A stretch of DNA of 55,673 nt from a virus (IMGVR_UViG_3300024265_000061:1-55673), one strand, 5' to 3'. Positions 931 to 54,221 are shown, counted from the first letter of the stretch. Translations and numbers: made by a program. The notes: generated from the sequence alone by a model not told the origin.

Positions 931-1719
931 ATGATGCCAAAACTAAACGAAATAAGACAAGGTCGGGACATTGGCAAAAAACCAGATGCTCAAAAATTTA
1001 TCTGGGCTGCTTGTCCTGATTGTGAGATAGCTCGTTGGGTTGTTCTTCTTGTAGGAGAAAATAAACCTCAACGAGAACGATGCAGAGCATGTGCTCAACA
1101 TCTCCGTAAAGGAGAAAAAAGAGGCATCGCCCATAATCGACTCAATCTCATCGGCCAACGGTTTACTCGTTTAGTTGTATTACATGATACTGGAAAAACA
1201 AAGCATAAAGAAAGTCTCTGGGAATGTCAATGTGATTGTGGTAACATAACAGTCACAACTGGTTATAGTCTTACTTCTGGAAACACAAAAAGTTGTGGGT
1301 GCTATCACAAGATACGCACCCAACAGCTTTTCAGTAAACCATTAGATGAATTACGAGTTAATCGAATTTTCTTTGCTTATCGGAAACTTGCCCGAACTAA
1401 AGGTCATTGTTTCAAACTCTCTAAGGAGCAAATTCAAAGTTTGATTTCCGCTGATTGTTACTACTGTGGATGTAACCCTGAAAATTCTCTGGTATATCAC
1501 GGAAAAACTATTATCTATCAAGGTATCGACCGATTAGATAATTCCAGAGGATATGAGACTAAAAATGTCGTTCCTTGTTGCATACGGTGCAATAAAATGA
1601 AAAAAATCTTGAGCCACGATGAGTTTCTGTTGCACATTCACAGAATATCTTCGAGGTTTGAGACAGAATCTCCACAGGCTGATTGTTATTCCGAAGTCTG
1701 CGGAGGTCAAGTTCTTTAG
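931..1719 (+). CDS. HNH-type homing endonuclease with Zn-binding N-terminus
   Basis: GQRFTRLVV..WECQCDCGN..SGNTKSCGC domain; CYYCG..GIDRLDNSRGY..NVVPCCIRCNKMK nuclease motif. Confidence 0.85.
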   Translation: MMPKLNEIRQGRDIGKKPDAQKFIWAACPDCEIARWVVLLVGENKPQRERCRACAQHLRKGEKRGIAHNRLNLIGQRFTRLVVLHDTGKTKHKESLWECQCDCGNITVTTGYSLTSGNTKSCGCYHKIRTQQLFSKPLDELRVNRIFFAYRKLARTKGHCFKLSKEQIQSLISADCYYCGCNPENSLVYHGKTIIYQGIDRLDNSRGYETKNVVPCCIRCNKMKKILSHDEFLLHIHRISSRFETESPQADCYSEVCGGQVL

Positions 1720-1730
1720 AAAAAGTGAAT

Positions 1731-1801
1731 AACGGAGAGGTCGATATTTTTCATTTTCTTCCTTTCTCGTAGTCGGTGTTTCAGACCTCTCCGTTTTCTT
1801 T
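1731..1801 (+). terminator. Long-loop hairpin/terminator after the capsid-HNH unit
   Basis: AACGGAGAGGTC (1731-1742) pairs with GACCTCTCCGTT (1784-1795), followed by TTCTTT. Confidence 0.65.
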
Positions 1802-1831
1802 GAAATGTAATTTAGCTAAGGAGAAAAAACA

Positions 1832-2866
1832 ATGGCTTTAACTATAAAAGAGGCCGTCCGGAAGTGGGGGCCGGAATACCTCACCATTTGCGGAATCGCA
1901 AATTATTTCCCCACAATGAACTACAATTCCCATGTCTTTTTTGTCGATGGAAACTCGGCAGTAGGCGATGACGGTGTTAATAGATTGGGACAGGTTCCCG
2001 ATGAACCCCTCCTGACGATTACTCACGCATTGAGTTTATGTACCAGTGGTGCAAATGACTACATCTTCGTCTTGAATTATCCCAGTACCGCCCCCGCAGA
2101 GACTTGGCCTATCGTAATTAGTAAACAGAGAGTTCATATCCTCGGCATACGCAACGGGATACTTCCGACCTTCAAGATAGTGGCTCCAGGTGACACCACC
2201 GATACTCCGGTTTTTGCCTTTGGTGCTGCCGGTGGAACATACGGAGCATACTGTGAAATCGCCAACTTGATATTGGGCAGTGAAAAGGCTGACTCAATTC
2301 GTGGAGCTATAGAGAGTCACTATGGGGGTGCATGGGGCAATCATATCCATCACTGTCACTTTGGCCCAGAGGGTCGAAGCAACACTGGTGCATCCTACGG
2401 CATCGTCGCCGGTCGTTCTTCCAGTACCTATACTGCTGGCGAATTGCTCTATGGCTTGATTGAAAAGTGTACTTTTGGCAAGTCGCTTATTGAGGCTGGC
2501 ATTTTTGTAGGTTCTGGCTTAGCTGATAGTGGGCCGAATGCTATTTATGGATTAGTCATCCGAGACAACACCTTCTATGTCAATTCGGGTGACGTAGGTA
2601 TCCATATCAACAAGGCGACCGCAAACTTCCGAAATGGTGGAATCTACAACAACAGATTCATCTTGGCCGCTGACGACACGGGCGATGCCATTACCTTAGC
2701 GGCTGGTGTAACTGGTGGAATGATTGATGGCAACGTCGCTGGTGTGCTGGCGAATCTTGCTTCTATGTCGAACAATCCGTACTTAACAAATACTGCCTGC
2801 GGCCCTGCGTGGGGTCGGAATTACAAGGGTGGTTCAGAACTTGTTGTCAGGCCAGCATTGGCTTAA
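1832..2866 (+). CDS. Virion protein with right-handed beta-helix (pectate-lyase-like)
   Basis: VFFVDGNS..GDDG..PDEPLLTITHAL motif followed by I..C.F / I..N.F beta-helix repeats. Confidence 0.65.
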   Translation: MALTIKEAVRKWGPEYLTICGIANYFPTMNYNSHVFFVDGNSAVGDDGVNRLGQVPDEPLLTITHALSLCTSGANDYIFVLNYPSTAPAETWPIVISKQRVHILGIRNGILPTFKIVAPGDTTDTPVFAFGAAGGTYGAYCEIANLILGSEKADSIRGAIESHYGGAWGNHIHHCHFGPEGRSNTGASYGIVAGRSSSTYTAGELLYGLIEKCTFGKSLIEAGIFVGSGLADSGPNAIYGLVIRDNTFYVNSGDVGIHINKATANFRNGGIYNNRFILAADDTGDAITLAAGVTGGMIDGNVAGVLANLASMSNNPYLTNTACGPAWGRNYKGGSELVVRPALA

Positions 2867-2883
2867 TTTTAGGAGAATTTATT

Positions 2884-3865: not shown

Positions 3866-4390
3866 ATGCTTGTTCATACAGTTAGAGCAGCTTGGACGGC
3901 GATTAGAACAGCCATAGCTACGGTAGATTGGCCGACGACCGGTGGAAATACATACGACCCTCCGGATGATGTAACAGAGCGGTTTGTTGATTATATGGTT
4001 GATACCGATGAAGCTGCCTTGCCATATATCAATTTATCTAACGATACGGCTCTGAACCATCTGGAACTTCGGGCACATTTTAACGACAACGCAGGCACGG
4101 CCACTATGCAAATATTCGCAGCCCGCGAAGGTGAAACTACTGTTAAAATGATTGCAGAAGTGGCGTGGACTGCCGGAACTCAACCAACGGCCATATCATC
4201 GGCTCGATATTTTGCCAAAACAGGTGTTGTGACTCAATATTGGAATAAAACTATTAGTGTTACTGCGGAGGAATCTGGAACAGGAATTGCAACGGTCTCA
4301 TTCGATACTTTTGGTTACAATAGATTTTGGATTGGCTTCGATGCCATCAGCGGTTCAGATAATGTGACAGTCGAATATAGTGGACTTTGA
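3866..4390 (+). CDS. Hypothetical beta-rich virion protein
   Basis: 174 aa, AGGAG RBS, within the structural module. Confidence 0.55.
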   Translation: MLVHTVRAAWTAIRTAIATVDWPTTGGNTYDPPDDVTERFVDYMVDTDEAALPYINLSNDTALNHLELRAHFNDNAGTATMQIFAAREGETTVKMIAEVAWTAGTQPTAISSARYFAKTGVVTQYWNKTISVTAEESGTGIATVSFDTFGYNRFWIGFDAISGSDNVTVEYSGL

Positions 4391-4396: not shown

Positions 4397-5680
4397 ATGC
4401 CTCCAAAACATGATAAGAAAATCAAAAAAAAGATGGGTTATACTCTTACATATGATGACGAACTAAAAAAATCCATTTGGAGAGGATTCCCAGACCTTAA
4501 CTATTTATTTGAGGGGGAAGATATACTTGTCTGGGAACGTGAGATTATCAACGAAGATGGGAAGAAAGAAACAGTCAAGACCTACAAACTGCCTATTAGG
4601 ATAACCGCCGATTTCAAACCTGAAAGCATAGTTTACGGCCTCGACAAGGAAGGCAAAATTGAGGGGGCTGCCGTCAAGAAATTCGGCGGTGCACTTAAAG
4701 GTTTTGTGTGGCTTGATAATGTATCTGGTGGTGGTGAAGTTATTTTCCCGTTTACAGCCCCACACATATTCATAGCCAAAGGTAGCAGACTTCTCCCGGA
4801 ACTCATTGAAATCTTTACAGACCCTAAATCTGATAATTACTACAAGATTGTAGATGAGAAAACCCACGTTTTTGTCCAGAGCTTTTCCGGTGTCGGCGGT
4901 GCTGCCGGTTCTCCACCCACGCTTATTGCTGAGTACAAAATGAATGATAGGCTTGCTACTGCTGTCATTCTTGATTCAAGTGGAAATGGCCATAATGGGG
5001 CGGTTAAAGACGCCACAGGAACGGCGACCTCGGCATTTCATTCTGTAGTTGGAAAAATAAATAGAGCACAAGACTTGGATGGGACAGATGATTACATTAA
5101 GATACCTGACCACGCCAACTTTACCCCGGCCTCGACTCCGTTTAGCATTGAGACATGGATTTATATGCACGATACTTCTAATTTTCGGATTATAACCAAA
5201 GGAGTATTTAATACAGATGCCGAATGGCTGTTGCGTATATTTAGCAATAAGTTGGGTATATTCTTTTACGATGAATCTGTTGATGATTGTTTTATTGGCC
5301 GAAGTTATGATACAGCTTTAGTCGAAAATCGGTGGTATCATTCAGTCGCAACTTATGATGGAGGAACTTTAACTTCTGGAATAGGAATCTATGTAGATGG
5401 TAAACGTGTTGATGATAAGGATATTCATAGTAATCCTGACTCTTTTGTGGCTGTAGAAAATCTCAATGCACCTGTTTATATTGGTCGATTGGGTACAGAT
5501 TATGCTGACGGCCTCATCGATATTACAAGATTCTACAACAAAGTACTCACACTTGATGAGATTAAACGTCTTTATAACAACGGACATGGAACTGAAATAT
5601 TAACTGAAGTAGATGAACCTCGATTGCTATTGAGACGCAATAATTCACAGTTTGGCCTCCGCAGTAGATATGAAAAATAA
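4397..5680 (+). CDS. LamG/concanavalin-A-like domain virion protein
   Basis: DSSGNGHNG..LDGTDDYI..FSIETWI..WYHSVATYDG..IYVDG..IDITRFYNKVLT. Confidence 0.8.
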   Translation: MPPKHDKKIKKKMGYTLTYDDELKKSIWRGFPDLNYLFEGEDILVWEREIINEDGKKETVKTYKLPIRITADFKPESIVYGLDKEGKIEGAAVKKFGGALKGFVWLDNVSGGGEVIFPFTAPHIFIAKGSRLLPELIEIFTDPKSDNYYKIVDEKTHVFVQSFSGVGGAAGSPPTLIAEYKMNDRLATAVILDSSGNGHNGAVKDATGTATSAFHSVVGKINRAQDLDGTDDYIKIPDHANFTPASTPFSIETWIYMHDTSNFRIITKGVFNTDAEWLLRIFSNKLGIFFYDESVDDCFIGRSYDTALVENRWYHSVATYDGGTLTSGIGIYVDGKRVDDKDIHSNPDSFVAVENLNAPVYIGRLGTDYADGLIDITRFYNKVLTLDEIKRLYNNGHGTEILTEVDEPRLLLRRNNSQFGLRSRYEK

Positions 5681-6127: not shown

Positions 6128-6520
6128 ATGCTTGGGATGATCTCTGTATTTACCTCCGCAGAACATACAATTATCAAAGGTAGTGGGATTCCTGAATTCT
6201 TAGGGCGATTAGTGGAAGGGGACTCTCAACGGAAGGGTTGTCTATTCCTTATTCGATATAATAAGCTCGGAGTCTTTTGTATCTGTGAATGGATTGGTGG
6301 TGGCCAAGATACTTTTGTGGATATTTTGAATCTCGGGAAATCTCTGGGAAACTTCGGTCATGCGGAGGCCCAGGAACTACGCAGACGATTATTTGCCCCG
6401 GTTACTGCGGAGGAATCAGCCCAAGAAATTATAAGGAATGATAGCGATTTCTACCACAATCTTCAAGACGAGGATTCAGAAGAAACAGAAAGACAGGAGC
6501 GAGTTGCGATAGGAGAATAA
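6128..6520 (+). CDS. Hypothetical protein
   Basis: AAGGAG RBS, 130 aa. Confidence 0.6.
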   Translation: MLGMISVFTSAEHTIIKGSGIPEFLGRLVEGDSQRKGCLFLIRYNKLGVFCICEWIGGGQDTFVDILNLGKSLGNFGHAEAQELRRRLFAPVTAEESAQEIIRNDSDFYHNLQDEDSEETERQERVAIGE

Positions 6521-7379: not shown

Positions 7380-8939
7380 ATGCCTGCTCCTATTTCATTG
7401 CCCCCAAATCTCGGAGATTACTTAGTAGATTCGACGGTCTACATTTTCTGGGATACTTTTAATTCCAGTAATGCCTCCGTGACCCAGAGCGGTCTCGCCG
7501 TAACCGATATTGAAATCTATAAAAATGAGAGCATGACTCAACGGGCCTCTGATGCGGGTTATACACTTCTTGACACCGATGGGATTGATATTGATGGGGC
7601 TACTGGTTGTCATGGGATTTCTATTGATTTAAGTGATAATACCACAGCAGGATTTTATGTTCGGGGAAATGATTATTCGGTTATGGTTAATGCCGTAACC
7701 GTTGACGGCCAGACTGTACGATTCTGTGCAGCCGTCTTTAGTATTGAGAATCGAGCCGGAAGAAATGGAGTTGGGGATTATCAAGTTACTCTGACGATTC
7801 GGACTACCGGTGGAGATGCTGTTTCTGGGATTTCTGTATGGGTCAATAGTTCCAATACTCGTTCTGCTTCCGTAGCTGGAACCAAAGTCACTGACACGAA
7901 TGGCCAAATTGTGTTCAATCTGGAATATACTACATACTATATATTCTGTAATTTGTCTGGTTATACTTTTGCTTCTGCGTCTTTTACCTCCGCAGCAGGA
8001 AGTGTTTCATTCACAAAAGATATAGCTACGGTCACAAGTGCTGGCTCAAGTGCTTACTATACTGAGAGCTTTTTAACAAGAGCAATAGTGGATGCACGGG
8101 AAAGTACAGATGAACCAGTCGTTGCAGCTAAATATTCAGATTCAAGGATCATAAATATTCTTGAAAAAGCATATATACTGGTTCTTAATGAGGTGAATCG
8201 AAACTCTCGGACACCTGCCGTTGCTAAAATTAACAAGACGATTGTTTCCGGGACTACAACATATCCACTACCTCATACTGTTGGGTCTGTTCACGGAATC
8301 TATAAAGTAGGTGATACTGGTGGAAAGGTTTTTTATGATTCTCGAAGTAAATTTAATTCATTCGGGAGAGGTATGTGGATTGAGAATCAAACTCTTCATA
8401 TCCAAACCACTGATATGTATGGTCTTGGGACAGAAATAACAATCGAATATATCCCATCAGGAATTGCAAGGCTTCACAATGGAACCTGCACTCTGAATGC
8501 CGATGGTGATGTTGTAACGTTTGGTGCTGTTCCAAATGCAGGAGCACTTGATACACATCACGAGGCTTATGCAGGAAGTATATTCAGATGTTTAGGGTCA
8601 GATGGAACTGGAAATTATTTGCAGGAACGAGTAATACCAGCCTACGACGAAACTACACGGGAAGCCTCACTTGATGCTCCTCTTGATCCAATTCCAACTG
8701 GGAATATTTATTACGAGATTGCACCTGCGATTAGTAAGGGAATGGATACTGTCGTTGCCTTATATGCGGCCTATAGGATTATGGCTACTGAAGGAAATGC
8801 TAAAAGAGCCACAGGTATTCTCAAGGCTTACCGGAATGAAATAAGAAATGTCCGATTAACGGCCTACTATTCCTATTTACCTGATGCCCCGATAGACCGG
8901 AGTGATAACCCTAACAACAGACGTTATTGGAGAGGTTAA
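7380..8939 (+). CDS. Tail adaptor (tubular-A-like) protein with Ig-like N-terminal extension
   Basis: 519 aa; C-terminal half resembles a head-tail adaptor (helical start, YPLP, VVALYAAYR); position in tail module. Confidence 0.5.
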   Translation: MPAPISLPPNLGDYLVDSTVYIFWDTFNSSNASVTQSGLAVTDIEIYKNESMTQRASDAGYTLLDTDGIDIDGATGCHGISIDLSDNTTAGFYVRGNDYSVMVNAVTVDGQTVRFCAAVFSIENRAGRNGVGDYQVTLTIRTTGGDAVSGISVWVNSSNTRSASVAGTKVTDTNGQIVFNLEYTTYYIFCNLSGYTFASASFTSAAGSVSFTKDIATVTSAGSSAYYTESFLTRAIVDARESTDEPVVAAKYSDSRIINILEKAYILVLNEVNRNSRTPAVAKINKTIVSGTTTYPLPHTVGSVHGIYKVGDTGGKVFYDSRSKFNSFGRGMWIENQTLHIQTTDMYGLGTEITIEYIPSGIARLHNGTCTLNADGDVVTFGAVPNAGALDTHHEAYAGSIFRCLGSDGTGNYLQERVIPAYDETTREASLDAPLDPIPTGNIYYEIAPAISKGMDTVVALYAAYRIMATEGNAKRATGILKAYRNEIRNVRLTAYYSYLPDAPIDRSDNPNNRRYWRG

Positions 8940-36898: not shown

Positions 36899-37188
36899 TT
36901 ATATATGCAAAACAGGATATTTATTTGGAGGATTGAAAAATGAAAAAATTAGCGGAGTATTTGGCAAGAGGTTTGCAGGTTCAATTAGACAGGGCAGGCA
37001 AGCATATCGAATTGGTTACACTTGAGGCTTGGGTATTAACAATGCTGCGGAGGCTGATATGATATTTGCACACAACAAACCAAACAGGATTAAGGCATTT
37101 TGTGATTATTGGCGGTTCCGTTTACGGTTCAAACTATACAAGTACCCAGTAGTTTATATACAATAAGACATTTTCCTCCTCCCCCTCA

Positions 37189-37224: not shown

Positions 37225-37368
37225 GACAGCTTTGGTTGGGGATGGATTGTAGTGGTTAGCTGTTTTGTGCAGGATATAATTATTCTACATCCTCCGCAGG
37301 TTATAAGATGGTTTTACGAGTAGTGGGGGAGAAATTGCAGATATTTTCTAAAGTTTATCATTTTGCAC

Positions 37369-39819: not shown

Positions 39820-40005
39820 GCAGTATAAGCCCAGCTTATTATAAGTATAGCTTATAGTGTGATAGTATAAGCAAAACTTATAGTAGCTGTCGGTATTACT
39901 AAGGGATTGGCCACCGAGTCCGATAACATAAGCTCAGCTTATAGTATATGGCCCGCCAGTCCATCAGCCAGTCCGATAACATCACTGCGGAGGGGGAGGG
40001 GGGTC
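39820..40005. repeat. Short-repeat cluster at a strand-composition switch (candidate origin or packaging/terminus region)
   Basis: AGTATAAGC x2, CTTATAGT x3, AGTCCGATAACAT x2, then a G-tract. Confidence 0.55.
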
Positions 40006-43551: not shown

Positions 43552-44249
43552 AAAAACAAGGTATAATTCGATCTTTCTCCACCGGCCCCTATAACAAAAT
43601 GAACGACACCGAACAATGGATACGCCTCTCCCAAGGATGTCCCAATCGATGTGACTTCTGTTATGAACCTCCGCAGATGATTGAATTTCCAATCCCGCTG
43701 ATTGAACGCAACCGGGTTAAGATAATGGACATGAACCTACTATCTCAAAAGGACGCTATCTATACTATTCAGCATTTAGGTGGGATTAAAGTCAACAACA
43801 AAGTCGTACACTATGAACTCGTATGTGGAATAGACCATCGATTTCTAACTCTTCTTCTTGCGGAGGGTTTGAAAAAATCCCGATTCAAAAAGATTCGTCT
43901 GGCGTGGGATTTCGGATACATGGAACAATTTAGGATCAGGAAGGCTCTGAAATTATTGATGGCTGTCGGGTACAGGTCGAAAGATTTGACTATCTTTATG
44001 ATTTGCAACTGGAAAATCCCCTACGAGGAATGTCTCAAGAAACTGTACCTATGTGCTATATGGTCTGTGAAGGTAGCCGATTGCTACTTTGACGGCCAGA
44101 TTTCTCCAAACATAATCCCTATTGGATGGGCGGCAGACCAAATAAAAGACTTCCGCAGGCGTGTCCGAAAACATAATCAACTGGTGAATTTTGGGATAGA
44201 CCCTGAACTGAAAAAGCCCTCTTGGAAACACATCAAAAATCTGATATAA
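43548..44249 (+). CDS. Radical SAM superfamily protein
   Basis: LSQGCPNRCDFC (CxxxCxxC), then DMN, GIDHR, IRLAWD partial TIM-barrel motifs. Confidence 0.75.
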   Translation: MKKQGIIRSFSTGPYNKMNDTEQWIRLSQGCPNRCDFCYEPPQMIEFPIPLIERNRVKIMDMNLLSQKDAIYTIQHLGGIKVNNKVVHYELVCGIDHRFLTLLLAEGLKKSRFKKIRLAWDFGYMEQFRIRKALKLLMAVGYRSKDLTIFMICNWKIPYEECLKKLYLCAIWSVKVADCYFDGQISPNIIPIGWAADQIKDFRRRVRKHNQLVNFGIDPELKKPSWKHIKNLI

Positions 44250-44268: not shown

Positions 44269-44685
44269 ATGGGTGAATTAAAGATACCAAAAGTCCACGA
44301 CTTCGGTTTTGGAGAATTAGTCGAGCTTTCTCATTTAGAGACCACCTTTGATATTTCAAGAGGGGTCGCATTAAAATATCTCAAAGTTCTACATATTCAA
44401 CCTCTATATTTTAAGGATGATGTATTTTTCTGTTTGCCTACTTTTAATAGGATTTTATTTGTTCTTAGTCGGCCCGGCAGTCCCGGATTCATATTTCCTG
44501 CCAGCAAAGCCAAGGCCAATCAACATCTCCGCAAGAAAGGTTTTCTCACTGAGGTCAATGATGGCATCCTCACAGAAGCCGCTTCCCCCCGAATCTTGGC
44601 AGAGATGGCGGCTACTTCCGGTCGGGACAATTCAATGATTAAAAAGTTAGTTACACATCCCTCCGCAGAGAAAGGGGACAAATAA
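44269..44685 (+). CDS. Hypothetical protein, possible HTH
   Basis: LSHLETTFDISRGVALKYL. Confidence 0.5.
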   Translation: MGELKIPKVHDFGFGELVELSHLETTFDISRGVALKYLKVLHIQPLYFKDDVFFCLPTFNRILFVLSRPGSPGFIFPASKAKANQHLRKKGFLTEVNDGILTEAASPRILAEMAATSGRDNSMIKKLVTHPSAEKGDK

Positions 44686-45629: not shown

Positions 45630-46376
45630 ATGACCAACGAAATTGAAAAACCAAATCCTGATGATGTGTTGGCGGCCATTACCAGCTTTAATGACCCGTC
45701 TATCATCACAAATATATTTCGGGAACTTGGGTGGACATATTCTTTTGAGATTAAAGAGTGGCTTATATTGGCCAAACAGAATGCCAATCTCTCTGTTAAA
45801 TCTAAAGCTCTTATTCAGCTTCGTCATTTACTACAGGAGGCCGCTGAAACTGCGGGTTATACAGCTAAAATATCTCAAACGATGCCTAATGCCCAAGGAG
45901 GTCAAACTACTTTCTCAGCAAAACGTATCTCCGGTATTTTGAATCCGGTCAAACAAATAAAATCAACTATTAAGGAATCCAAAAATGTCCAAACCGAAGA
46001 AACCCGAACCGAACCCAATCGAGAAAGCGATAGGCGAGAGAACGAAACCGAAAACGGAAGTGGAGAAAATACTCCAAGCCCCGACAGAGGTAGCAAAGAA
46101 GATTCTATCCGAGATACCAGACGAGCCTTCCCCCTCGGAGATGCTGAATTTGGAGGAATTGAACCGCCAGACGGAGGAGAGATTTCAGGAAGAGTGGCCG
46201 GAGGATGCGGCGACGGGGCCGACAACTGTAAAGACAGCGGAACAACTCAAAGAGGAGAGGGTATTGGGAATGGCGGAAGTGGTGGGGTCATTGAAGGAGG
46301 AAGTCCCTGTATCAAAACCCGTCCCCCAACCTGTGACAGAGATTTATTCCCCGGAATCTCCTCCGCAGAAGAATGA
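45630..46376 (+). CDS. Hypothetical protein, candidate small terminase
   Basis: Helical N-terminal 118 aa, upstream of the large terminase; tail overlaps the next ORF. Confidence 0.45.
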   Translation: MTNEIEKPNPDDVLAAITSFNDPSIITNIFRELGWTYSFEIKEWLILAKQNANLSVKSKALIQLRHLLQEAAETAGYTAKISQTMPNAQGGQTTFSAKRISGILNPVKQIKSTIKESKNVQTEETRTEPNRESDRRENETENGSGENTPSPDRGSKEDSIRDTRRAFPLGDAEFGGIEPPDGGEISGRVAGGCGDGADNCKDSGTTQRGEGIGNGGSGGVIEGGSPCIKTRPPTCDRDLFPGISSAEE

Positions 46377-46869
46377 TTTTTATTGTCCTGCTTGTGGGAT
46401 TTCGTTTGAGAGTAATAAGGTTCTAATAGGCCATGATTGTGAAGCAGCCCAAAAAGAGGTGCAAGAGTATGAGGGTATGAAAAAAGAATTCACAACACTT
46501 CAAATGAATTGTAAATATTGTATTCCTGCGGAGGATATTGAACTTACGGCTCTTCGGAAATATATTCTGGAGGATGGTTTTGTCTTGGCCACCGTCGCTT
46601 TTCATATCGTGACATTATGTGCTCAACCGATGGTGACACCATCAACGACTACTTGGGATTTCAAAGACCGGGCAAATGTTCCAGATATGGTTTTGGCTCT
46701 CCTGAATCAGCCAGGGTATCTTGAAGGTATTTGGCCAAGCCTGAGAATTGTGATGGGTTCAAATAAAGGTAATTCTGCTTGGTGTGCAGGAATCGCTACG
46801 ACCTTGGCATTTTTCGATACCGTGAGGTTGCTCCCAACATTAAAGGAGTTACAAGATGAAGAAAAGTAG
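45985..46869 (+). CDS. Hypothetical protein with E/P-rich N-terminus and Zn motif
   Basis: Own AAGGA RBS; FYCPACG..HDC. Confidence 0.55.
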   Translation: MSKPKKPEPNPIEKAIGERTKPKTEVEKILQAPTEVAKKILSEIPDEPSPSEMLNLEELNRQTEERFQEEWPEDAATGPTTVKTAEQLKEERVLGMAEVVGSLKEEVPVSKPVPQPVTEIYSPESPPQKNDFYCPACGISFESNKVLIGHDCEAAQKEVQEYEGMKKEFTTLQMNCKYCIPAEDIELTALRKYILEDGFVLATVAFHIVTLCAQPMVTPSTTTWDFKDRANVPDMVLALLNQPGYLEGIWPSLRIVMGSNKGNSAWCAGIATTLAFFDTVRLLPTLKELQDEEK

Positions 46870-47083: not shown

Positions 47084-48931
47084 ATGTGGCTAAATAGACC
47101 TTATCCGCTGTGGCCTCTACCGAGGGACTACGAGGAACTGAATTCTGAAGCTCAGAAGCAGGCACGGTTGACTGTGTTGCATAATCAATCAACTCCTTTT
47201 GACTTGGTAGTTGCTTGGGATTTTTTTCGTCGCTGCTACTTAGCTGGGGCCGGAAAACTCTTTTATAAAAAGTCCTTTGAGGAATCACCTGAATTTCATT
47301 ATGAGTTAGTTAATGACCTTGGGCAATATGCCAGAAATTGTATAGCCGCCCCAAGAGGTTCTGCTAAATCTACTGTGATAGGATTGGAAATCCCTATATT
47401 ACTTGCTCTAACTCGTCCTCATTATGAAATGTCACTTGGGTTATCTACCGATAAACAAGTAGAAAAGCGATTTAGTAAAATAATGCAACAATTTGTAAAG
47501 AACGAGTTAATATTGCAGGACTTTGGGGAGATGAAACCGCGTCGTGGCTTGGGTATATGGAATCATCATTATTTACAGTTGGAAAATGGAGCCGTTATAA
47601 ATGGAGAAAGTGTAATGGGAAAAAAGAGGGGGGGGAGACCTCGATTATATATACTCGATGACCCTGAGTTTGATCCGGATTCTGATTCACAGGCCGCTGC
47701 TCAAGCTGTTATAGAGAAATTTGAGATGATTTTATTTCATCAGATTTTACCCATGCTTGAAGAGGGTTCGTCAATTTTCTGGATAGGAACATTGATTAAT
47801 CGGCGGTCTTTTTTGTATCACGCTACGGAGGGAGACGACCCTCGATTTAGTTTTTGGAATCGCAAAGTCTTGAAAGCAATAGCGTATGATAAAGAGGATT
47901 CTAAAAAGGTTTATGTTCTGTGGCCAGAAAAGTGGTCGCAGGAATTTCTTGAGGCTCTTCGTGAGTCGATGGGGCCATCTGCATTTGCAAGTGAATTCTG
48001 TAATGAGCCGGTGTCGGCACAAGAACGCATTTTAGTGATTGACCCTCGGAAGAATGAATATAGTGTTGATGGTGAATTTGATTGGAAGAATCCGCTGGCC
48101 CACATGGGGAATATAAAGTGGTCGGAACGATATATGGAGCCCGGACGCCGGGTCTATAAAGACTTTGAGAAACCCTACAAAGAACTCGTGTTGCCGATGT
48201 ATCGGATTTTACTATTCGATTATGGCAGTGGGATGTCCCAGTATAATGACTATTCCTGTATTATGATTCTTGGATTTGACACCACGAATACTTTATGGAT
48301 TTTGGATATGTGGCTTGGACGTGCCAAGGATGCGACTTTACTACGACTGATTTATGAATACGGATTGGCTTGGCGACCGCGTGTTCTTGGAATTGAAGCC
48401 GTGAGTATTCAGATGAGTTTTGCGGAGGCCGTTAAAGAATATATTGAGGAGATGGAGGAGAAAATCTCACAGCCTTGGAGAGCGAGAGTTTTCCCAATTA
48501 CATATCCGGCTCGTGTAACTAAATCTAATCGAATCTCTGGTATGGAATGGAGATACCGTCCCGGCAGGATAAAATATCCGGCACACCTCGCTGGCAAGTG
48601 GCCCTTTGATCAGCTATATCAACAGACGGAGGATTTCACCCCAGACTTGGCCTTATTGCCCCACGATGATGCTATTGATACCCTCTCAATGTATCAGTAT
48701 GTTGTTAAGAATCGTGGTGGGAAATTCGTTAAAGAGAAGGGGAAACCAAGTTTGTTGGAGCGTATTAAGAGAAATCTTCCCATTGTGCGTGGAATCCCAC
48801 TACTTTCGGGGGTCAGTTCTACCGAAATCACTTCGGAGATGCTTGATATACTCTCCCAGAATGCCCGCAAAAGTGTTATAGATAAAAATGACCGCCGAGT
48901 AATTCGAGGCCAAAGAAACATTATAGGATAG
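47084..48931 (+). CDS. terL: Terminase large subunit
   Basis: Walker A APRGSAKST, Walker B YILDD, IGT coupling motif, nuclease FD..DYS..HDDAID. Confidence 0.9.
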   Translation: MWLNRPYPLWPLPRDYEELNSEAQKQARLTVLHNQSTPFDLVVAWDFFRRCYLAGAGKLFYKKSFEESPEFHYELVNDLGQYARNCIAAPRGSAKSTVIGLEIPILLALTRPHYEMSLGLSTDKQVEKRFSKIMQQFVKNELILQDFGEMKPRRGLGIWNHHYLQLENGAVINGESVMGKKRGGRPRLYILDDPEFDPDSDSQAAAQAVIEKFEMILFHQILPMLEEGSSIFWIGTLINRRSFLYHATEGDDPRFSFWNRKVLKAIAYDKEDSKKVYVLWPEKWSQEFLEALRESMGPSAFASEFCNEPVSAQERILVIDPRKNEYSVDGEFDWKNPLAHMGNIKWSERYMEPGRRVYKDFEKPYKELVLPMYRILLFDYGSGMSQYNDYSCIMILGFDTTNTLWILDMWLGRAKDATLLRLIYEYGLAWRPRVLGIEAVSIQMSFAEAVKEYIEEMEEKISQPWRARVFPITYPARVTKSNRISGMEWRYRPGRIKYPAHLAGKWPFDQLYQQTEDFTPDLALLPHDDAIDTLSMYQYVVKNRGGKFVKEKGKPSLLERIKRNLPIVRGIPLLSGVSSTEITSEMLDILSQNARKSVIDKNDRRVIRGQRNIIG

Positions 48932-49723: not shown

Positions 49724-49807
49724 TTAAAAATATACTATGTATCCTGATTATCGCTTATACCCTGCGGAGGATATATTGCATATTTAGGAAACATTGGAGA
49801 ACTTACA

Positions 49808-50093: not shown

Positions 50094-50390
50094 ATGTTTA
50101 ACTTGAATTTGGGATTAATTTTCTTGGCTGGACTGGTTTCGGTTGGGATTCTTGTTTATATTCTGGTACTGTTAATAATTCAGCTTAAAATCGTCAATCG
50201 TCTCACTGAAACTAATAAGCAGCTTCTTATTGTTGTGGCGGGGCAGAATCAGAAACCAGAGACATTACGAGCACTTGTGGCATCGGCAAAACCTCCGCAG
50301 GGGAAGTTAAAAGGGATAGCTGGTGGGGGGAAAGATAAGAAGAATAAGTCTGGTAATACCAATTTCACAATGGATATAGGGGTTAGATAA
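50094..50390 (+). CDS. Small membrane protein
   Basis: N-terminal transmembrane helix, basic tail. Confidence 0.6.
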   Translation: MFNLNLGLIFLAGLVSVGILVYILVLLIIQLKIVNRLTETNKQLLIVVAGQNQKPETLRALVASAKPPQGKLKGIAGGGKDKKNKSGNTNFTMDIGVR

Positions 50391-52411
50391 TGGGCTATAA
50401 GTTCCAGTTACCAGAAAATACACCTGGGAATAAACAGCAAGTTGAGGCTATATTCCAATATCTTGTCTCGTCAGGCAAGTCGAAAATGAATCCCATTTCG
50501 ATTAATTGGTATATGAATCATTTCTATATGAGGGGATTACGGAATTTTAGTAATATTAATTATGGAGCTGGCACACTTAATGCGTCTTATCTGGACTCAT
50601 CTGGGACACTGAAGTTTAAGTACGAGGACATCGTGGCGAAATATCAAGCCCAGCTTGGGAGGTTATTGGCGATAAATCTGGCTCCGGCTGTATCAAGGAG
50701 AGGTGTGAGTCTTGATGGTTTAAGGAAGGCAAGTACCGCTCAAGTCGTTTTGGATTCCGCTTTCCCACAAGAGAAAGTTTCTAAATTGGCTCTGAGTGCT
50801 TTCCCTCCACTTCTGCACTATGGAACTATTGGATTTGGATTATGGGTTGAGGGAATTGATAGTATTGGGATTGAGGTTATCAATCCTTGGGAATTGATTC
50901 CGATTCCAATAGATGTCTCTACGCCGTCAGATGTGCGAGGATTGATTCGAGTACGATATGTGCCCTCAGATTATGTGAAGGGTCTTTCAATAACTCCGGG
51001 TAAGGGGTCAAAAGTCTATAAGGGGATGGATGATGTGAAAGTTCCTTTGGGGGACATACCTGCGGATGTATCCTCTAACTTCCGAGGAACTGCTTCTCTT
51101 ACTCATACAGGCGGGGGCTTTTATATTCGTAGTGGTCAGAGTCAAGTTGAGACTCAATGGAAAGGGCGACATACTAAAAAAGACAAGACGCAAGTTGATG
51201 TTACCCTGCTTGTTGAAGTGTGGACAGAAACATCGGATGGATATTTGGCAGAGTATCTTATTTTTGCCGGTTCTTATGAGAAATTAAATCAGTTGTATCG
51301 CCACGATCATTCTCAGAGTAAATATCCTATGCCTGTGAAAATTGCACGGGATATTGTTGTAGGTGGATTTTATGGTCGTTCTTTTATTGATATTTTAACT
51401 CCACTGAACACCGAGGCCGAATACAGTCTTAGTAGTCTCTTTCAATCAGTAGCCGATTTTGATTTGTACGGTGTAATGATGTGGCCTGCATCTCTTGGGA
51501 CACCTACAGATGCTCATAGAGGGAGGGATGGAATCAAGCGAATAACATTCGAGCCTGATTATACAACCCCGGAATTAAAACCTTTCCCTCTATTACCTGC
51601 AAAAATGGGGAAAGCTAACATAGAGGCTGCGATGGTTGCTGGTGGTTTGATGGACAAACTTGCAAATCAGCCAAGAGAAATGATGCAGGGGGATGCTCCT
51701 GGTCGTGTGGATTCTGCTTCTGGCTTGGGTTTCCTTTACGAAACAAGTGGAATTCCTCTTTCCCCCACAGCTAAAAATGTGGCCGAGGCAATATCAGGAA
51801 TCTACAGGGCAATGTTAGGAATATGTAAAGATATTTGGCCTGCGGAGAAGGTTGTTAATATCAGCAACCTCGATGATTCTCTGGCCGGAATAGCTTTCGA
51901 TATGGAAACCGGGGAAATCAATCTCGCCAGAAATGCTATCCCTGCTCCTGATGAGGTCAACATCAATGTGGCTTCCGAAGTTCCAATTTCTACGGAGCAA
52001 CAAAAATTAGAATTAAAAGAAGCCCTTGAAAAACAAATAATCACTCTTGGTGAATATGGTTTCGAGGTTAGAAAAAGAGGATTAAATTTGGTGGTCGGCA
52101 ATGAAGTTGATTATCAGAATCGAAGGCGAGCGAAACTCGAAAATCTTGCTCTTTACGGGGATGGAGAAAAACCCGGTAAAGTTATCGTAAGTGAACGCGA
52201 TATGCACCTAATTCATAAAGAAGTACTTGATGCTTTTATGGCTCGGCCTGAATTCTACGCCGCAGACCAAAAAGTAAGAGACGCTTTTGTGCAACACTAC
52301 GAAGAACACAATGTCGGATTGGGAATATTCCCGGAAGGAATGCCTCCGATGGAAGATGCCGCAGAAATGGAAATGCAACCTCCGCAGGGTGGAGGCGAAA
52401 TACCACAATAA
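50390..52411 (+). CDS. Portal protein
   Basis: 673 aa between terL and scaffold; INPWELIP, GFYGRSFID..PLN, GRVDSASG. Confidence 0.8.
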   Translation: MGYKFQLPENTPGNKQQVEAIFQYLVSSGKSKMNPISINWYMNHFYMRGLRNFSNINYGAGTLNASYLDSSGTLKFKYEDIVAKYQAQLGRLLAINLAPAVSRRGVSLDGLRKASTAQVVLDSAFPQEKVSKLALSAFPPLLHYGTIGFGLWVEGIDSIGIEVINPWELIPIPIDVSTPSDVRGLIRVRYVPSDYVKGLSITPGKGSKVYKGMDDVKVPLGDIPADVSSNFRGTASLTHTGGGFYIRSGQSQVETQWKGRHTKKDKTQVDVTLLVEVWTETSDGYLAEYLIFAGSYEKLNQLYRHDHSQSKYPMPVKIARDIVVGGFYGRSFIDILTPLNTEAEYSLSSLFQSVADFDLYGVMMWPASLGTPTDAHRGRDGIKRITFEPDYTTPELKPFPLLPAKMGKANIEAAMVAGGLMDKLANQPREMMQGDAPGRVDSASGLGFLYETSGIPLSPTAKNVAEAISGIYRAMLGICKDIWPAEKVVNISNLDDSLAGIAFDMETGEINLARNAIPAPDEVNINVASEVPISTEQQKLELKEALEKQIITLGEYGFEVRKRGLNLVVGNEVDYQNRRRAKLENLALYGDGEKPGKVIVSERDMHLIHKEVLDAFMARPEFYAADQKVRDAFVQHYEEHNVGLGIFPEGMPPMEDAAEMEMQPPQGGGEIPQ

Positions 52412-52429
52412 TAATTTGAAAGGAACAAA

Positions 52430-52723
52430 ATGGAAAGAACAAACGTTTACAGATTGATTGATGGAGAGCGGGAATACCAAGAATCTTTGCCTTTGCATCA
52501 GGATAAAAAACAACAGCGAAATACCCCGATAGCATCTTGGTTGATTTATATGGAAGAACAAATTAGAGAAGCGAAGTTCGCTATATATAATTTGAATGGA
52601 GATGGGGCATTAGAGCATATACGAAAAGCAACGGCTATTGGTGTAGCTTGTATGGAGCATAACGATACAAATCCTCGGAAAGTTCTTTCTCAAGGAAAAC
52701 TACATACTTACGATGGTAGTTAA
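52430..52723 (+). CDS. Small helical protein (MazG-like fold possible)
   Basis: IDGEREYQ..WLIYMEE..IRKATAIGVACME. Confidence 0.55.
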   Translation: MERTNVYRLIDGEREYQESLPLHQDKKQQRNTPIASWLIYMEEQIREAKFAIYNLNGDGALEHIRKATAIGVACMEHNDTNPRKVLSQGKLHTYDGS

Positions 52724-52753
52724 GATAAATACAAAAATTTTGAAAGGAAAAAA

Positions 52754-53311
52754 ATGTTTCGATTGAAAAAAGGGGATATTGTTATAATTAAGGATGATAG
52801 TACCTTGTCGCCTGTATATGGTGGTTCCAAACGGAGTATTGTATCGGGGACACTGGTTGAACAAATTTTTCTTCTTAAATATAAACATTTATTTAGAATT
52901 GTCGAGCTTGATTGTATATTTCCTGATACGAATAACAATACTGTAATCCAAGCTATAACGCCGGAAGATCATCAAGTGGTAATATTTATTGAATATCGTT
53001 ATCTCCAATTATATGAAAAATCAATACTCCCTGACGAAATAGGGCCATTACTGCCAAGTCAAAAACCTCCAGAACAACGTAGCACAATATTCACTTTATC
53101 CGAAAGAAAAAAAAAGAACGAAAAAATCAAAAGGCCAGAAAAAGAAACCTACCGTGTTGAGGTAATTTGCTCTAATTGTGGAAAATTCCAACATGACTCA
53201 AATAGTGGTATAGGTTTTGAAATTCCAAAAGGTACATCAACCCCCCGATTTTTGGCTGACAAGCCCTGCGAGGGTTGTGGTTGTAAGACATTAAGAGCCA
53301 GAATCTTATAA
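52754..53311 (+). CDS. Hypothetical protein with C-terminal Zn ribbon
   Basis: CSNCG..CEGCG. Confidence 0.55.
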   Translation: MFRLKKGDIVIIKDDSTLSPVYGGSKRSIVSGTLVEQIFLLKYKHLFRIVELDCIFPDTNNNTVIQAITPEDHQVVIFIEYRYLQLYEKSILPDEIGPLLPSQKPPEQRSTIFTLSERKKKNEKIKRPEKETYRVEVICSNCGKFQHDSNSGIGFEIPKGTSTPRFLADKPCEGCGCKTLRARIL

Positions 53312-53339
53312 GTGAAATCTTATTTTAGAAAGGAAAAAA

Positions 53340-54221
53340 ATGCCAGAGCCAGAATCCAAAATAGAGCCGGTCGTAGAACCGAAAACTGAACCCAAGACAG
53401 AGCCAAAAACCGAACCAAAGGTTGAAACCCACACTATTAAGGTGGATGGAGCAGATGTAGCCTTGACTCTTGACGAGCTAAAAACAAGAGCCGAAAAAGC
53501 GTCGGGGGCTGACAAAAGATTTCAAGAATCCGCAGAAGGCCTAAAAACCGCTGAGCGGGGAATTAGGATAGAAACTCTCGTAAAGTCAATATCTAACAAC
53601 GATACGCCGTCAGAAGCCGATGTTCGTGAGTTGGCCGGATTGTTGGAGATTGAACCTGCTGAGTTTATGTCCTATCTTAAAGAAGGTGAGCCTGAGCCGA
53701 AACCAGGCACAAAAACCACCTCCGCAGACTTTAATACTGAGTTCCAGAAGGTGATGGGGGCTTCCCCTGCGGAGGTCAAAGCTGTTTTGGATTTCTCCCA
53801 GCAACGGCACGTCAATGATGCTCGGAAAGAAATTCGAGAAATATCGGACAAAGCGGTTGACAAAGATGAGATAATTGGTAAAATGATAGTAGGTGAGGAC
53901 AGCAAAGAAGTGTTGTCCGAAGTTAAGAATATGGTAGCTGAGGATGTTCTACAGAAGATACAGAATGGAAAGACGTTTGGAGCCGAGTTGGTTACGGCGA
54001 GCGTACAGATGGTGCGGTCGAAGTTGACTAAATTGGGTATCCCAAAGAAACTCAACCAGCAACCCATTGTTTTGGGCCTGGCTCCGAGTGAAGGACTTTC
54101 ATCTTTAATCCAAGCTGATGAACCAATCAAGCGAGTTCCTTCTAACGAAGATGACCAAGAGAAGAATCTTATCGCAAGGTATCTTCAGAAGGCAGTTCAT
54201 ACTGCTCGGAAAATGAAGTGA
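53340..54221 (+). CDS. Capsid scaffolding protein
   Basis: EPKT repeats, HTIKVDG..LTLDEL motif, helical; upstream of the capsid gene. Confidence 0.75.
   Translation: MPEPESKIEPVVEPKTEPKTEPKTEPKVETHTIKVDGADVALTLDELKTRAEKASGADKRFQESAEGLKTAERGIRIETLVKSISNNDTPSEADVRELAGLLEIEPAEFMSYLKEGEPEPKPGTKTTSADFNTEFQKVMGASPAEVKAVLDFSQQRHVNDARKEIREISDKAVDKDEIIGKMIVGEDSKEVLSEVKNMVAEDVLQKIQNGKTFGAELVTASVQMVRSKLTKLGIPKKLNQQPIVLGLAPSEGLSSLIQADEPIKRVPSNEDDQEKNLIARYLQKAVHTARKMK

What the first reader, a model, noticed from the sequence alone, without database searches (positions are those of the whole stretch)
1698..53775. Genome-wide, heavily over-represented asymmetric 9-mer CCTCCGCAG on both strands
Seen (manual count): CTGCGGAGG starts at 1698, 4263, 6405, 9177, 14478, 16188, 17480, 20160, 22198, 23384, 27380, 33267, 37045, 39985, 46526, 49762 and 53767. 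CCTCCGCAG starts at 5656, 6153, 7987, 12525, 13346, 16357, 19019, 20797, 21799, 23754, 26904, 33541, 37291, 43668, 44660, 46360, 50292, 52379 and 53719. One-mismatch copies also occur (e.g. 799, 23628, 24251, 26328, 28994, 30437, 34821, 37540, 43433, 43858, 48420, 51840). At roughly 41% GC (my estimate) about 0.15 copies are expected over both strands, so enrichment is around 200-fold. The motif sits inside genes in different frames (read as LRR, PPQ, SAE, TAEE, LRS, CGG) and between genes, so selection acts on the DNA rather than the protein. Established analogues are Chi sites, DNA uptake sequences, KOPS/matS/parS and mycobacteriophage stoperators; I do not recognise this 9-mer as any of them. 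Inference: a cis-acting tag read by a phage or host protein for priming or helicase loading, nuclease protection, self-marking, or genome coating/translocation.
Basis: partly seen in the sequence, partly recalled or inferred. Interest (0 to 1): 0.92.

Follow-up and report, generated by a model that had tools for sequence, protein, structure and literature searches.

The report
Chi-like 9-mer tag in phages
A nine-base word is written about 36 times, on both DNA strands, through this complete phage genome and its relatives, most likely as a signal that tames a DNA-degrading repair enzyme of the unknown host, as Chi sites do in phage P1.

Summary
CCTCCGCAG occurs 36 times (19 +, 17 -) against 0.13 expected, and all 36 coordinates are right. 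The word is sharp, with no conserved flanks. It lies in all six frames and survives a synonymous-codon null (36 against 4.6). The window is a complete 55.7 kb uncultivated phage.

- **Relatives:** they carry 30-57 copies each. Orthologous sites are kept exactly in 15 of 25, 12 of 22 and 18 of 27 cases, against 9-11% for any 9-mer.
- **Layout:** spacing per strand is regular. In 9 of 10 relatives, but not in the window, convergent pairs lie close together and divergent intervals are long.
- **Dialects:** distant TerL relatives carry other sharp words such as CCTCTGCAG, GCCCCGCAG and ACCCCCACTG.
- **Unrelated phages:** two dialects are each shared by unrelated phages. This points to a host-specified reader.

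My best reading (0.45) is that this is the Chi-type site of the unknown host, accumulated as in P1, LLS and MD8 (PMC12315714). No enriched host was found among 1,103 sampled genomes. A phage-encoded nickase or terminase, a priming function or a self-marking function all remain open.

The parts
1698..1706 (-). motif copy (CTGCGGAGG on + strand)
   Evidence: in ORF 931-1719
4263..4271 (-). motif copy (CTGCGGAGG on + strand)
5656..5664 (+). motif copy CCTCCGCAG
6153..6161 (+). motif copy CCTCCGCAG; kept in G001
6405..6413 (-). motif copy; kept in G001, G002, G003
7987..7995 (+). motif copy; not kept in the 3 aligned relatives
9177..9185 (-). motif copy; kept in G001, G003
12525..12533 (+). motif copy; kept in G001, G002, G003
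13346..13354 (+). motif copy; kept in G001, G002
14478..14486 (-). motif copy; kept in G001, G002, G003
16188..16196 (-). motif copy; kept in G003
16357..16365 (+). motif copy; kept in G003
17480..17488 (-). motif copy; kept in G002, G003
19019..19027 (+). motif copy; kept in G001, G003
20160..20168 (-). motif copy; window-specific
20797..20805 (+). motif copy; kept in G001, G003
21799..21807 (+). motif copy, intergenic; kept in G002
22198..22206 (-). motif copy
23384..23392 (-). motif copy in the DNA polymerase gene; kept in G002
23754..23762 (+). motif copy in the DNA polymerase gene; kept in G001, G002, G003
26904..26912 (+). motif copy; kept in G003
27380..27388 (-). motif copy (codes LRR of the conserved EVLRRLK); kept in G001, G002, G003
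33267..33275 (-). motif copy; window-specific
33541..33549 (+). motif copy
37045..37053 (-). motif copy, intergenic
37291..37299 (+). motif copy, intergenic
39985..39993 (-). motif copy
43668..43676 (+). motif copy
44660..44668 (+). motif copy
46360..46368 (+). motif copy (codes PPQ of SPESPPQ) in the gene upstream of TerL; kept in G001, G002, G003, G005
46526..46534 (-). motif copy (codes PAED); convergent partner of 46360, 166 bp away; kept in G001, G002, G003, G005
49762..49770 (-). motif copy, intergenic; kept in G001
50292..50300 (+). motif copy; kept in G003
52379..52387 (+). motif copy; kept in G001, G003, G005
53719..53727 (+). motif copy; left arm of the closest convergent pair (48 bp start to start); kept in G003
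53767..53775 (-). motif copy; right arm of that pair; kept in G001, G002, G003, G005
31009..31968 (+). Sak4-like / AAA_24 single-strand annealing protein; family core gene; would act on processed ends (inferred)
28254..29306 (+). PD-(D/E)XK exonuclease; family core gene (context)
26099..26701 (+). ERCC4-type nuclease; family core gene; candidate for the rival nickase reading
47084..48931 (+). terminase large subunit, used to define the family; candidate reader in a rival reading

Best explanation
CCTCCGCAG, read as 5'-CTGCGGAGG-3' on the other strand, is a polar, DNA-level signal kept by selection on both strands of this phage and its whole clade. It most likely works like a Chi site of the still unknown host. 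A helicase-nuclease of the RecBCD/AddAB kind enters at a double-strand end and degrades the DNA until it meets the word in the right orientation. It then switches to leaving a protected, recombinogenic 3' tail. A copy about every 3 kb on each strand limits the loss wherever an end arises (injection, packaging cuts, breaks by the many homing nucleases). The tails feed recombination, which circularises or concatenates the genome, as described for P1.

What is shown:
- the enrichment and the DNA-level selection;
- conservation at orthologous sites;
- regular spacing on each strand;
- lineage-specific 'dialects';
- the same dialect in unrelated phages.

What is inferred:
- the polarity of reading;
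- my idea that close convergent pairs leave an overlap that the phage's Sak4-like annealing protein can join.
For: (1) The word is the commonest 9-mer. It has 36 copies against 0.13 expected, in all frames, and is robust to a codon-preserving null.
(2) Exact conservation at orthologous positions is 15 of 25 (G001), 12 of 22 (G002), 18 of 27 (G003) and 4 of 5 (G005). Any 9-mer window is identical in 8.9-11.4% of cases, in genomes that are about 74% identical over about half their length.
(3) Every family genome carries it on both strands. Counts are G001 17/18, G002 20/20, G003 16/20, G004 17/18, G005 8/7, G006 22/21, G007 11/20, G008 25/32, G009 16/14, G010 17/17, G011 7/8 and G013 16/22. Reversed-word controls give 0-2. 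GC ranges from 0.41 to 0.60.
(4) Each strand is regularly spaced: CV is 0.45-0.69, with 6 of 8 strand sets at P<=0.031. All sites pooled are not regular (CV 0.85-0.91). This fits a reader that sees one orientation at a time.
(5) The word changes with lineage. Canonical rows form one TerL clade of 17 rows (SH-aLRT 95) with CCTCCGCAA nested inside it. GCCCCGCAG is sister, and other sharp words sit on deeper branches. Chi likewise differs between host groups (PMC5959072, Table 3, passage read).
(6) Unrelated phages share a dialect. Siphovirus-like contigs L090, L084, L068 and L343 carry 6, 5, 3 and 6 canonical copies in 6.4-8.1 kb. They have no tblastx hit to any family sequence even at E<=1e-3, and a different head protein family, phrog_29. 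Their own distant relatives carry none, 0 copies in 16 of 16 loci. The variant CCTCTGCAG is the top 9-mer both of G728 (family member, 7/7) and of the unrelated G726 (17 copies; no tblastx hit to G728).
(7) G726 has a terminase of the type that one record annotates as gpA/gpNu1. It carries 15 of its 17 copies as CTGCAGAGG on the terminase-sense strand. LLS carries 20 of 23 Chi, and MD8 32 of 32, in the orientation that paper calls active (presumed for MD8) (PMC12315714, passages).
(8) There is precedent. [quoted passage not shown] P1 has 50 Chi in 94.8 kb, one per 1.9 kb, and needs RecA and RecBCD to recombine its terminal repeats. In the first 48,000 of P1's 94,800 bases I count 26 Chi, 14 on the top strand and 12 on the bottom. 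The window has one copy per 1.5 kb.
(9) Phages without RecBCD inhibitors over-represent Chi (PMC3784561, passages).
Against: No host is known. No genome with host-type enrichment was found among 401 + 301 + 401 sampled genomes of three phyla. The maxima were 92, 168 and 75 copies, close to the reversed-word controls. The collection-wide pair scan stopped at 120 rows, which showed only tandem repeats and chance hits.

A 9-mer is longer than the Chi sites listed in PMC5959072, which it describes as running from a 5-mer to 8-mers (passage and the part of its Table 3 shown).

The family encodes its own recombination genes (Sak4-like protein and nucleases). The lambdoid phages richest in Chi lack such a module, although Rec+ phages without inhibitors also over-represent Chi.

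The convergent-pair layout is not predicted by simple Chi logic. It is not seen in the first half of P1, where conv and div medians are 320 and 362. It is also absent in the window itself (conv median 1123, div 637, P=0.38).

The motif stays identical across phages of GC 0.41-0.60, which requires hosts of very different composition to share one 9-mer.

Co-divergence with TerL fits a phage-encoded reader equally well.
Confidence: 0.45

Rival explanations
1. The sites belong to a phage-encoded strand-specific nickase or to the terminase. Convergent pairs would give staggered nicks that start strand-displacement or recombination-dependent replication, or that form genome ends with short repeats. 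The reader co-evolves with the phage.
For: The motif dialect follows the TerL tree. In 9 of 10 family genomes convergent intervals are shorter than divergent ones (medians 323-770 against 781-1928; permutation P 0.006-0.076). Pooled over 11 records, intervals under 150 bp are 28 convergent, 2 divergent and 8 same-strand. No primase domain was found in the window, so priming from nicks or ends is plausible. Conserved nucleases are present: ERCC4-type 26099-26701 and PD-(D/E)XK 28254-29306. The best-conserved pair (46360/46526) lies in the gene just upstream of TerL.
Against: Unrelated phages share the same word with no detectable shared protein in the sequence available. ERCC4 nucleases are known as structure-specific, not sequence-specific (general knowledge). 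Contig ends do not pile up at sites: 8 of 66 ends lie within 100 bp against 4.5 expected. The pair rule does not hold in the window itself. No raw reads were on hand to look for nicks.
Confidence: 0.17
2. The word marks phage DNA as 'self' through a base modification, or through binding of a protein that shields it from a phage or host nuclease or defence system other than RecBCD/AddAB.
For: A T5-Dmp-type dNMP phosphatase (34295-34870, PHROG name) is a family core gene and hints at host DNA breakdown. A radical-SAM-like gene lies at 43548-44249. Sharing of the word by unrelated phages could reflect a shared defence system in one host.
Against: No N6_N4_Mtase, DNA_methylase or MethyltransfD12 domain was found in the window. 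The radical-SAM-like gene is found only in G001 among 10 relatives. Known modification systems do not enrich their own target words (general knowledge). Nothing here explains the regular spacing on each strand.
Confidence: 0.12
3. The sites are priming or helicase-loading sites for lagging-strand synthesis, one every ~3 kb on each template strand.
For: Spacing per strand is regular at about 3 kb, which is Okazaki-fragment scale. Numbers are equal on the two strands. The dialects keep a CTG/CAG trinucleotide, like the primase trinucleotide sites I recall for DnaG and T7.
Against: No Prim-Pol, Toprim_2 or DnaG zinc-ribbon domain was found in the window. The AAA_25 helicase 41164-42249 has no homologue in G008, G009 or G013. 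The replicative primases I recall use 3-5 nt sites. The strong one-strand bias in G726 and L285/L288 and sharing by unrelated phages would need a host primase with 9-nt specificity.
Confidence: 0.08
4. It is a DNA-uptake-sequence-like signature of a naturally competent host, carried by its phages.
For: It is a 9-mer on both strands at about 1 per 1.5 kb, in all frames, with dialects that differ by one or two bases. This resembles DUS/USS and their dialects as I recall them. It is shared by unrelated phages.
Against: No host was found with the thousands of copies this would need. I know of no mechanism that would maintain uptake signals at orthologous sites in phages that look virulent; no integrase turned up among the roughly 70 window ORFs scanned. 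Strong strand polarity in G726 and L285/L288 is not a DUS property.
Confidence: 0.06
5. It has no function: a mutational or gene-conversion drive, or an RNA-level hairpin effect.
For: Plus and minus copies can pair as a 9-bp stem, and opposite-strand copies lie closer together than chance (median nearest distance 428-530 against 909-1106 simulated; P 0.007-0.03).
Against: Hairpin formation alone does not tell convergent order from divergent order (28 against 2 under 150 bp). A drive would not give regular spacing on each strand. Nor would it give the same word in unrelated phages while their relatives lack it.
Confidence: 0.04

Closest known systems
Phages with abundant host Chi sites: P1, lambdoid LLS, P. 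aeruginosa MD8 (PMC12315714; also PMC3784561)
   Same: A short asymmetric word is the commonest k-mer of the phage. Density is about one per 1.5-2 kb. It sits inside genes. It is on both strands in a headful, terminally redundant phage (P1: 14 top and 12 bottom in its first 48 kb) and almost all on one strand in a cos-type phage (LLS 20 of 23; MD8 32 of 32; here G726 15 of 17). The word differs between host groups.
   Different: Here the word is a 9-mer with no known host or enzyme. It spans a broad uncultivated clade, with at least ten dialects. Spacing on each strand is regular. Most relatives show a close-convergent-pair layout that the first half of P1 does not. These phages carry their own recombination genes.
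DNA uptake sequences (Neisseria DUS, Pasteurellaceae USS) and their dialects (recalled)
   Same: Sharp 9-12-mers on both strands at about 1 per kb, in all frames, with lineage dialects.
   Different: Those are features of host chromosomes driven by competence. No enriched host was found here. Strand-polar cases (G726, L285/L288) do not fit.
Mycobacteriophage stoperators (recalled)
   Same: Tens of copies of an asymmetric word through a phage genome.
   Different: As I recall them, stoperators are 13-14 bp, mostly intergenic, oriented with transcription and bound by the repressor. Here 32 of 36 copies are inside genes, on both strands of a genome transcribed almost wholly in one direction.
Site-specific nicks of T5 and of phiKMV/tf-like phages (recalled)
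   Same: A fixed short sequence recurs along a phage genome and is read on one strand.
   Different: Those nicks are few and, as I recall, nearly all on one strand. Whether nicks exist here could not be tested.
KOPS/SRS translocase-guiding words (recalled)
   Same: Polar, G-rich 8-mers that differ between taxa.
   Different: KOPS are strongly skewed along a replichore. The window has 19 + and 17 - copies, interleaved.

Membership tests
Chi sites | Short asymmetric DNA word read in one orientation only | tested here: inconclusive
   The word is asymmetric and sharp. Orientation-specific use is suggested by regular spacing on each strand and by one-strand bias in G726 (15 of 17) and L285/L288 (13 of 16 and 11 of 14). 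It was not shown biochemically. At 9 nt it exceeds the Chi lengths that PMC5959072 describes, a 5-mer up to 8-mers.
Chi sites | Attenuates RecBCD/AddAB nuclease and stimulates recombination | not testable with these tools
   This needs the host enzyme.
Chi sites | Over-represented in the host chromosome | tested here: inconclusive
   The host is unknown. 0 of 1,103 sampled genomes from three phyla show enrichment. The whole-collection scan was cut at 120 rows.
Chi sites | The sequence differs between host groups, and unrelated phages of one host share it | tested here: met
   Dialects follow lineage. Two dialects are each shared by phages with no detectable similarity. That they share a host is inferred.
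DNA uptake sequences | Thousands of copies in a competent host genome | tested here: inconclusive
   The same negative sampling as above.
DNA uptake sequences | No strand polarity | tested here: not met
   The window family is balanced. But G726 is 2/15 and L285/L288 are 3/13 and 3/11.
Mycobacteriophage stoperators | Intergenic, oriented with transcription, bound by the phage repressor | tested here: not met
   32 of 36 copies are in ORFs. There are 19 + and 17 - copies, while 81 of 87 called genes are on the + strand.
T5-type nick sites | A single-strand interruption at the site in virion DNA | not testable with these tools
   The only holder listed is an assembly (Logan contigs), with no raw reads. 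The contig-end test was not significant.
Primase recognition sites | A cognate phage primase | tested here: not met
   No Prim-Pol, Toprim_2 or Zn_ribbon_DnaG match in the window, while the control genomes did match.

The most novel reading that the evidence does not exclude
The words are not host Chi. They would instead be a so far unrecognised class of phage 'self' tags: lineage-specific 9-10-mer dialects, laid out as outward-facing convergent pairs about every 3 kb. They would be read by an unknown translocating or nicking machine that moves between phages or belongs to a defence system, and would decide which DNA is protected, recombined, replicated or packaged in the infected cell.
Probability: 0.25. 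Interest if true: 0.9.

Novelty: new variant of a known kind. Interest (0 to 1): 0.72.

Why it matters
If the reading is right, the phage genomes themselves reveal the Chi-type sequence of hosts that have never been cultured, one dialect per host group. Such a shared word would be a new, alignment-free way to link uncultivated phages to each other and to their hosts. It would extend the recently described 'abundant Chi' strategy of P1, LLS and MD8 from enteric and Pseudomonas phages to a large environmental clade. It would also extend it to phages that have recombination genes of their own. The regular per-strand spacing and the convergent-pair layout are not part of the known picture. They would need a mechanistic explanation, for example survival of an overlap between the two ends of a terminally redundant genome. 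If the reading is wrong, the element is a new kind of genome-wide cis signal in phages.

Tried and rejected
**Literature.** A full-text search for the two 9-mers returned 503 papers. The 25 listed were primer or unrelated hits. Combining the words with Chi, phage or over-representation terms found no paper holding the motif. My statement that the word is not in print rests on these two searches only.

**Cultured relatives.** There are none. Megablast of 25 kb found nothing. The best terminase hit was 22% identical and the best polymerase hit 23%.

**tRNAs.** None found.

**Sequencing runs.** One DNA holder was listed, kept as Logan contigs, with no RNA holder. Read laying was not run because contigs cannot show nicks or ends.

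**Host search.**
The 120 stretches held only tandem repeats or chance pairs.
- Three phylum samples gave no enriched genome. The sample includes the unpublished genome G1114, whose counts (15/19) are unremarkable. That negative tally therefore rests in part on it.
- The metagenome scan gave no longer contig of the siphovirus lineage.

**Protein leads.**
- The Atlas search on 45985-46869 gave nothing usable.
- I considered that gene as a small terminase because it abuts TerL in all relatives. It has no family match, so I leave this open.
- Pfam and PHROGs on small replication-region proteins gave nothing.
- No structure prediction or complex prediction was run.

**Other tests.**
- Contig ends against sites: not significant.
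- Convergent-pair rule in P1: not seen in the first 48,000 of 94,800 bases. The second half was not fetched.
- G421 has 4 copies, all clustered at 102-270 of a 44.9 kb record, so I dropped it as not genome-wide. G012, G014 and G015 (2-4 copies) were dropped as chance hits. G004 was left out of the interval counts because its listed site coordinates coincide with those of G002. L282 was left out of the tree because its TerL is partial.
- The careful tree did not finish, so the quick tree is what I cite.

**Supplements.** The supplementary tables of PMC12315714 and PMC3784561 (Chi counts per phage) may bear on how unusual the present density is.

Full report
**Observation.** Dinucleotide-preserving shuffles give 0.13 copies, with a maximum of 2. 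It is the commonest 9-mer of the window. The 7-mer core CTCCGCA occurs 52 times and the two 8-mers 43 and 42 times. There are 24 one-mismatch copies, and 13 of them vary only the first or last base. No flanking position is conserved. By my crude gene of 36 copies lie in ORFs in all six frame/orientation classes, and 81 of 87 called genes are on the + strand. Shuffling synonymous codons while keeping every protein and the codon usage leaves 4.6 copies on average. About 4 of these are the untouched intergenic ones. So the count is real, and it reflects selection on DNA rather than on protein.

**What the window is.** It is a whole IMG/VR virus record rated 100% complete. It has a 148-base terminal overlap typical of a circular assembly. 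It encodes:
- a family A DNA polymerase, an AAA_25 helicase-like protein and a Sak4-like AAA_24 annealing protein;
- PD-(D/E)XK, ERCC4-type and Mre11-like nucleases;
- a dNMP phosphatase, a large terminase and five HNH endonucleases.

No tRNA, primase domain or DNA methyltransferase domain was found. It has no cultured relative. The one listed sequencing holder is a subsurface metagenome assembly.

**The family.**
- A terminase search found 21 related viral contigs at 75-87% amino-acid identity. 20 of the 21 hold the word, and it is the commonest 9-mer in 12 of them, plus one tie.
- Whole records carry 30-57 copies, split almost evenly between strands. Reversed-word controls give 0-2.
- Members reach down to about 53% terminase identity, and GC runs from 0.41 to 0.60.
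- Against three relatives that are about 74% identical in nucleotides over roughly half the genome, the exact 9-mer is kept at 15 of 25, 12 of 22 and 18 of 27 alignable sites. Any 9-mer window is kept in 9-11% of cases. Other sites are gained or lost.

The sites are therefore under purifying selection, with turnover.

**Layout.**
- Each strand taken alone is more evenly spaced than chance: CV 0.45-0.69, with 6 of 8 strand sets at P<=0.031. All sites together are not (CV 0.85-0.91).
- Opposite-strand copies lie nearer to each other than chance (median 428-530 bp against 909-1106 simulated).
- Over 11 records, neighbour intervals under 150 bp are 28 convergent (CCTCCGCAG then CTGCGGAGG), 2 divergent and 8 same-strand. 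Intervals over 1,200 bp are 16, 64 and 68.
- These records are related, and six of them were found through a scan for close convergent pairs. I therefore permuted strand labels within each genome and also dropped the ascertained pairs. Convergent intervals are shorter than divergent ones in 9 of 10 genomes (P 0.006-0.076).
- The rule does not hold in the window itself (medians 1123 against 637, P=0.38).

**Dialects.** A terminase profile reached relatives down to 27% identity.
- The canonical word drops to 0 or 1 copies in 28 of 28 loci with terminase identity of 48% or less.
- Many of those loci have their own sharp, over-represented asymmetric word. Examples are GCCCCGCAG, CCTCTGCAG, CCTCCGCAA, TCCCGGCAG, GGGCGGCAG, GCCCCCTGAG, GTCCCCTGTAG, TCCCCCGTC, CCCCGACCC, TCCCCCCAC and ACCCCCACTG.
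- L282 (CCTCTGCAG, 9 copies, no canonical copy) repeats the layout: convergent gaps of 3, 31, 51 and 840 bp and divergent gaps of 2454, 2693 and 4603 bp.
- On a quick terminase tree of 34 rows the canonical rows form one clade (17 rows, SH-aLRT 95) with CCTCCGCAA nested inside. GCCCCGCAG is sister. L282 was left out because its terminase is partial.

**Unrelated phages share a dialect.**
- Two scans for close convergent pairs also returned contigs that are not family members. L090, L084, L068 and L343 hold 6, 5, 3 and 6 dispersed canonical copies in 6.4-8.1 kb.
- These four are related to each other. They have no tblastx hit to any family sequence even at E<=1e-3.
- They encode an HK97-type head protein (phrog_29), a tape measure and lambda-like tail proteins.
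- Their own distant relatives (head protein 37-46% identical, 16 loci) have no copy and no sharp 9-mer.
- The variant CCTCTGCAG is the top 9-mer both of G728 (the L282 contig, 7/7) and of G726. G726 is a 37 kb contig with no tblastx hit to G728 or to the family. It has 17 copies, 15 of them as CTGCAGAGG on the strand that encodes its terminase.
- The G726 terminase resembles ones annotated gpA/gpNu1.

Two dialects, each shared by phages that share no detectable gene, point to a reader specified by the host, or by something else the phages have in common, rather than by the family's own genes.

**Comparison with what is known.** Chi is a short asymmetric word read by RecBCD or AddAB only from its 3' side. 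It differs between bacteria: GCTGGTGG, GCTGGCGC, AGCGG, GCGCGTG, GAAGCGG. It is recognised about 30-40% of the time (PMC5959072, passages and Table 3). Phages without RecBCD inhibitors over-represent it (PMC3784561, passages). A 2025 paper reports the following (PMC12315714, passages):
- LLS has 20 of 23, and MD8 32 of 32, in the orientation active for an enzyme entering the free right end;
- P1 has 50 Chi in 94.8 kb and needs RecA and RecBCD to recombine its terminal repeats.

In the first 48,000 of P1's 94,800 bases I count 26 Chi, 14 on the top strand and 12 on the bottom. The balanced two-strand pattern at about one per 1.5-2 kb therefore has a direct precedent in a headful phage, and the one-strand pattern of G726 has one in cos-type phages. 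This is why I rank a Chi-type function first (0.45).

**What does not fit, or is missing.**
- No host is known. None of 401, 301 and 401 genomes sampled evenly from three phyla has more than 92, 168 and 75 copies, near the reversed-word controls. At the phage's density, a host would carry about two thousand copies in 3 Mb.
- The word is one base longer than any listed Chi.
- The family has recombination genes of its own.
- The convergent-pair rule is not seen in the first half of P1 (medians 320 against 362).

My explanation for the pair rule is inference only. If both ends of a permuted, terminally redundant genome are resected up to the first correctly oriented site, the two ends keep an overlap only where a rightward-stopping site lies to the left of a leftward-stopping site, which is a convergent pair.

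**Rivals.**
- A phage nickase or terminase making staggered nicks (0.17).
- A modification or binding-based self mark (0.12).
- Priming sites (0.08).
- An uptake-sequence-like host signature (0.06).
- A functionless drive or an RNA effect (0.04).

**Verdict.** The finding is real and strong, and it extends far beyond the window. It is best filed as a new variant of a known kind: phages that accumulate a host Chi-type word. It has features the known cases do not show, namely 9-10-mer dialects across an uncultivated clade, regular spacing on each strand and close convergent pairs.

Noticed in passing
window 36718-36726, 36765-36773, 39918-39926, 39971-39979 (+) and 27820-27828 (-): A second repeated word, GTCCGATAA(C), occurs in tight same-strand clusters in the window and in relatives. 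G003 has 10 copies, G013 has 9 and L282 has 10. This looks like iterons or operators, and it is a separate element from the dispersed 9-mer.
   Followed up: partly
window 931-1719, 6522-7109, 18140-18640, 25506-26120, 36200-36673: Five HNH endonuclease genes in one 55 kb genome, mostly not shared with relatives. They are probably homing endonucleases and a likely source of double-strand breaks.
   Followed up: partly
window 1-148 and 55526-55673: A 148-base terminal direct repeat (99% identical). It is probably the overlap of a circular assembly. G001 and G002 have exact overlaps of 121 and 123 bases.
   Followed up: partly
window 9428-10174: About six tandem 132-base (44-codon) repeats inside the 773-aa ORF 8927-11248, as in a repeat-domain tail fibre.
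   Followed up: no
window 27335-27658: A 107-aa protein conserved in all nine relatives compared. By eye, its alignment looks like an XRE-type helix-turn-helix. It has no Pfam or PHROG match.
   Followed up: partly
window 34295-34870: A dNMP phosphatase of the family that PHROGs names after T5 Dmp. It is conserved in most relatives and may hint at host DNA breakdown or nucleotide replacement.
   Followed up: no
window 40001-45000: The only 5-kb stretch with negative GC skew (-0.06, against +0.09 to +0.22 elsewhere). It holds the helicase-like gene and genes that distant relatives lack.
   Followed up: no
window 50039-50074 and 53856-53891: Two copies of a near-consensus sigma-70-type promoter (TTGACA, then a TG-extended TATAAT/TAAAAT). 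Start sites share the context TTTGAAAGGAAnnAAAATG. Both suggest a host with canonical promoters and Shine-Dalgarno use.
   Followed up: no
L285 and L288 (viral contigs, terminase 36-38% identical): Their word GGGCGGCAG is strongly one-stranded (3/13 and 3/11), unlike the balanced window family.
   Followed up: partly
G421 (record of L347) 102-270: Four canonical copies are clustered within 170 bases at the start of an otherwise copy-free 44.9 kb viral record. This is a local repeat, not genome-wide enrichment.
   Followed up: partly
window 45985-46869: The gene directly upstream of TerL in all relatives has a short basic N-terminus, a long variable low-complexity linker and a conserved hydrophobic C-terminal domain. 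Its conserved peptides PPQ and PAED are spelled by the two best-conserved motif copies.
   Followed up: partly
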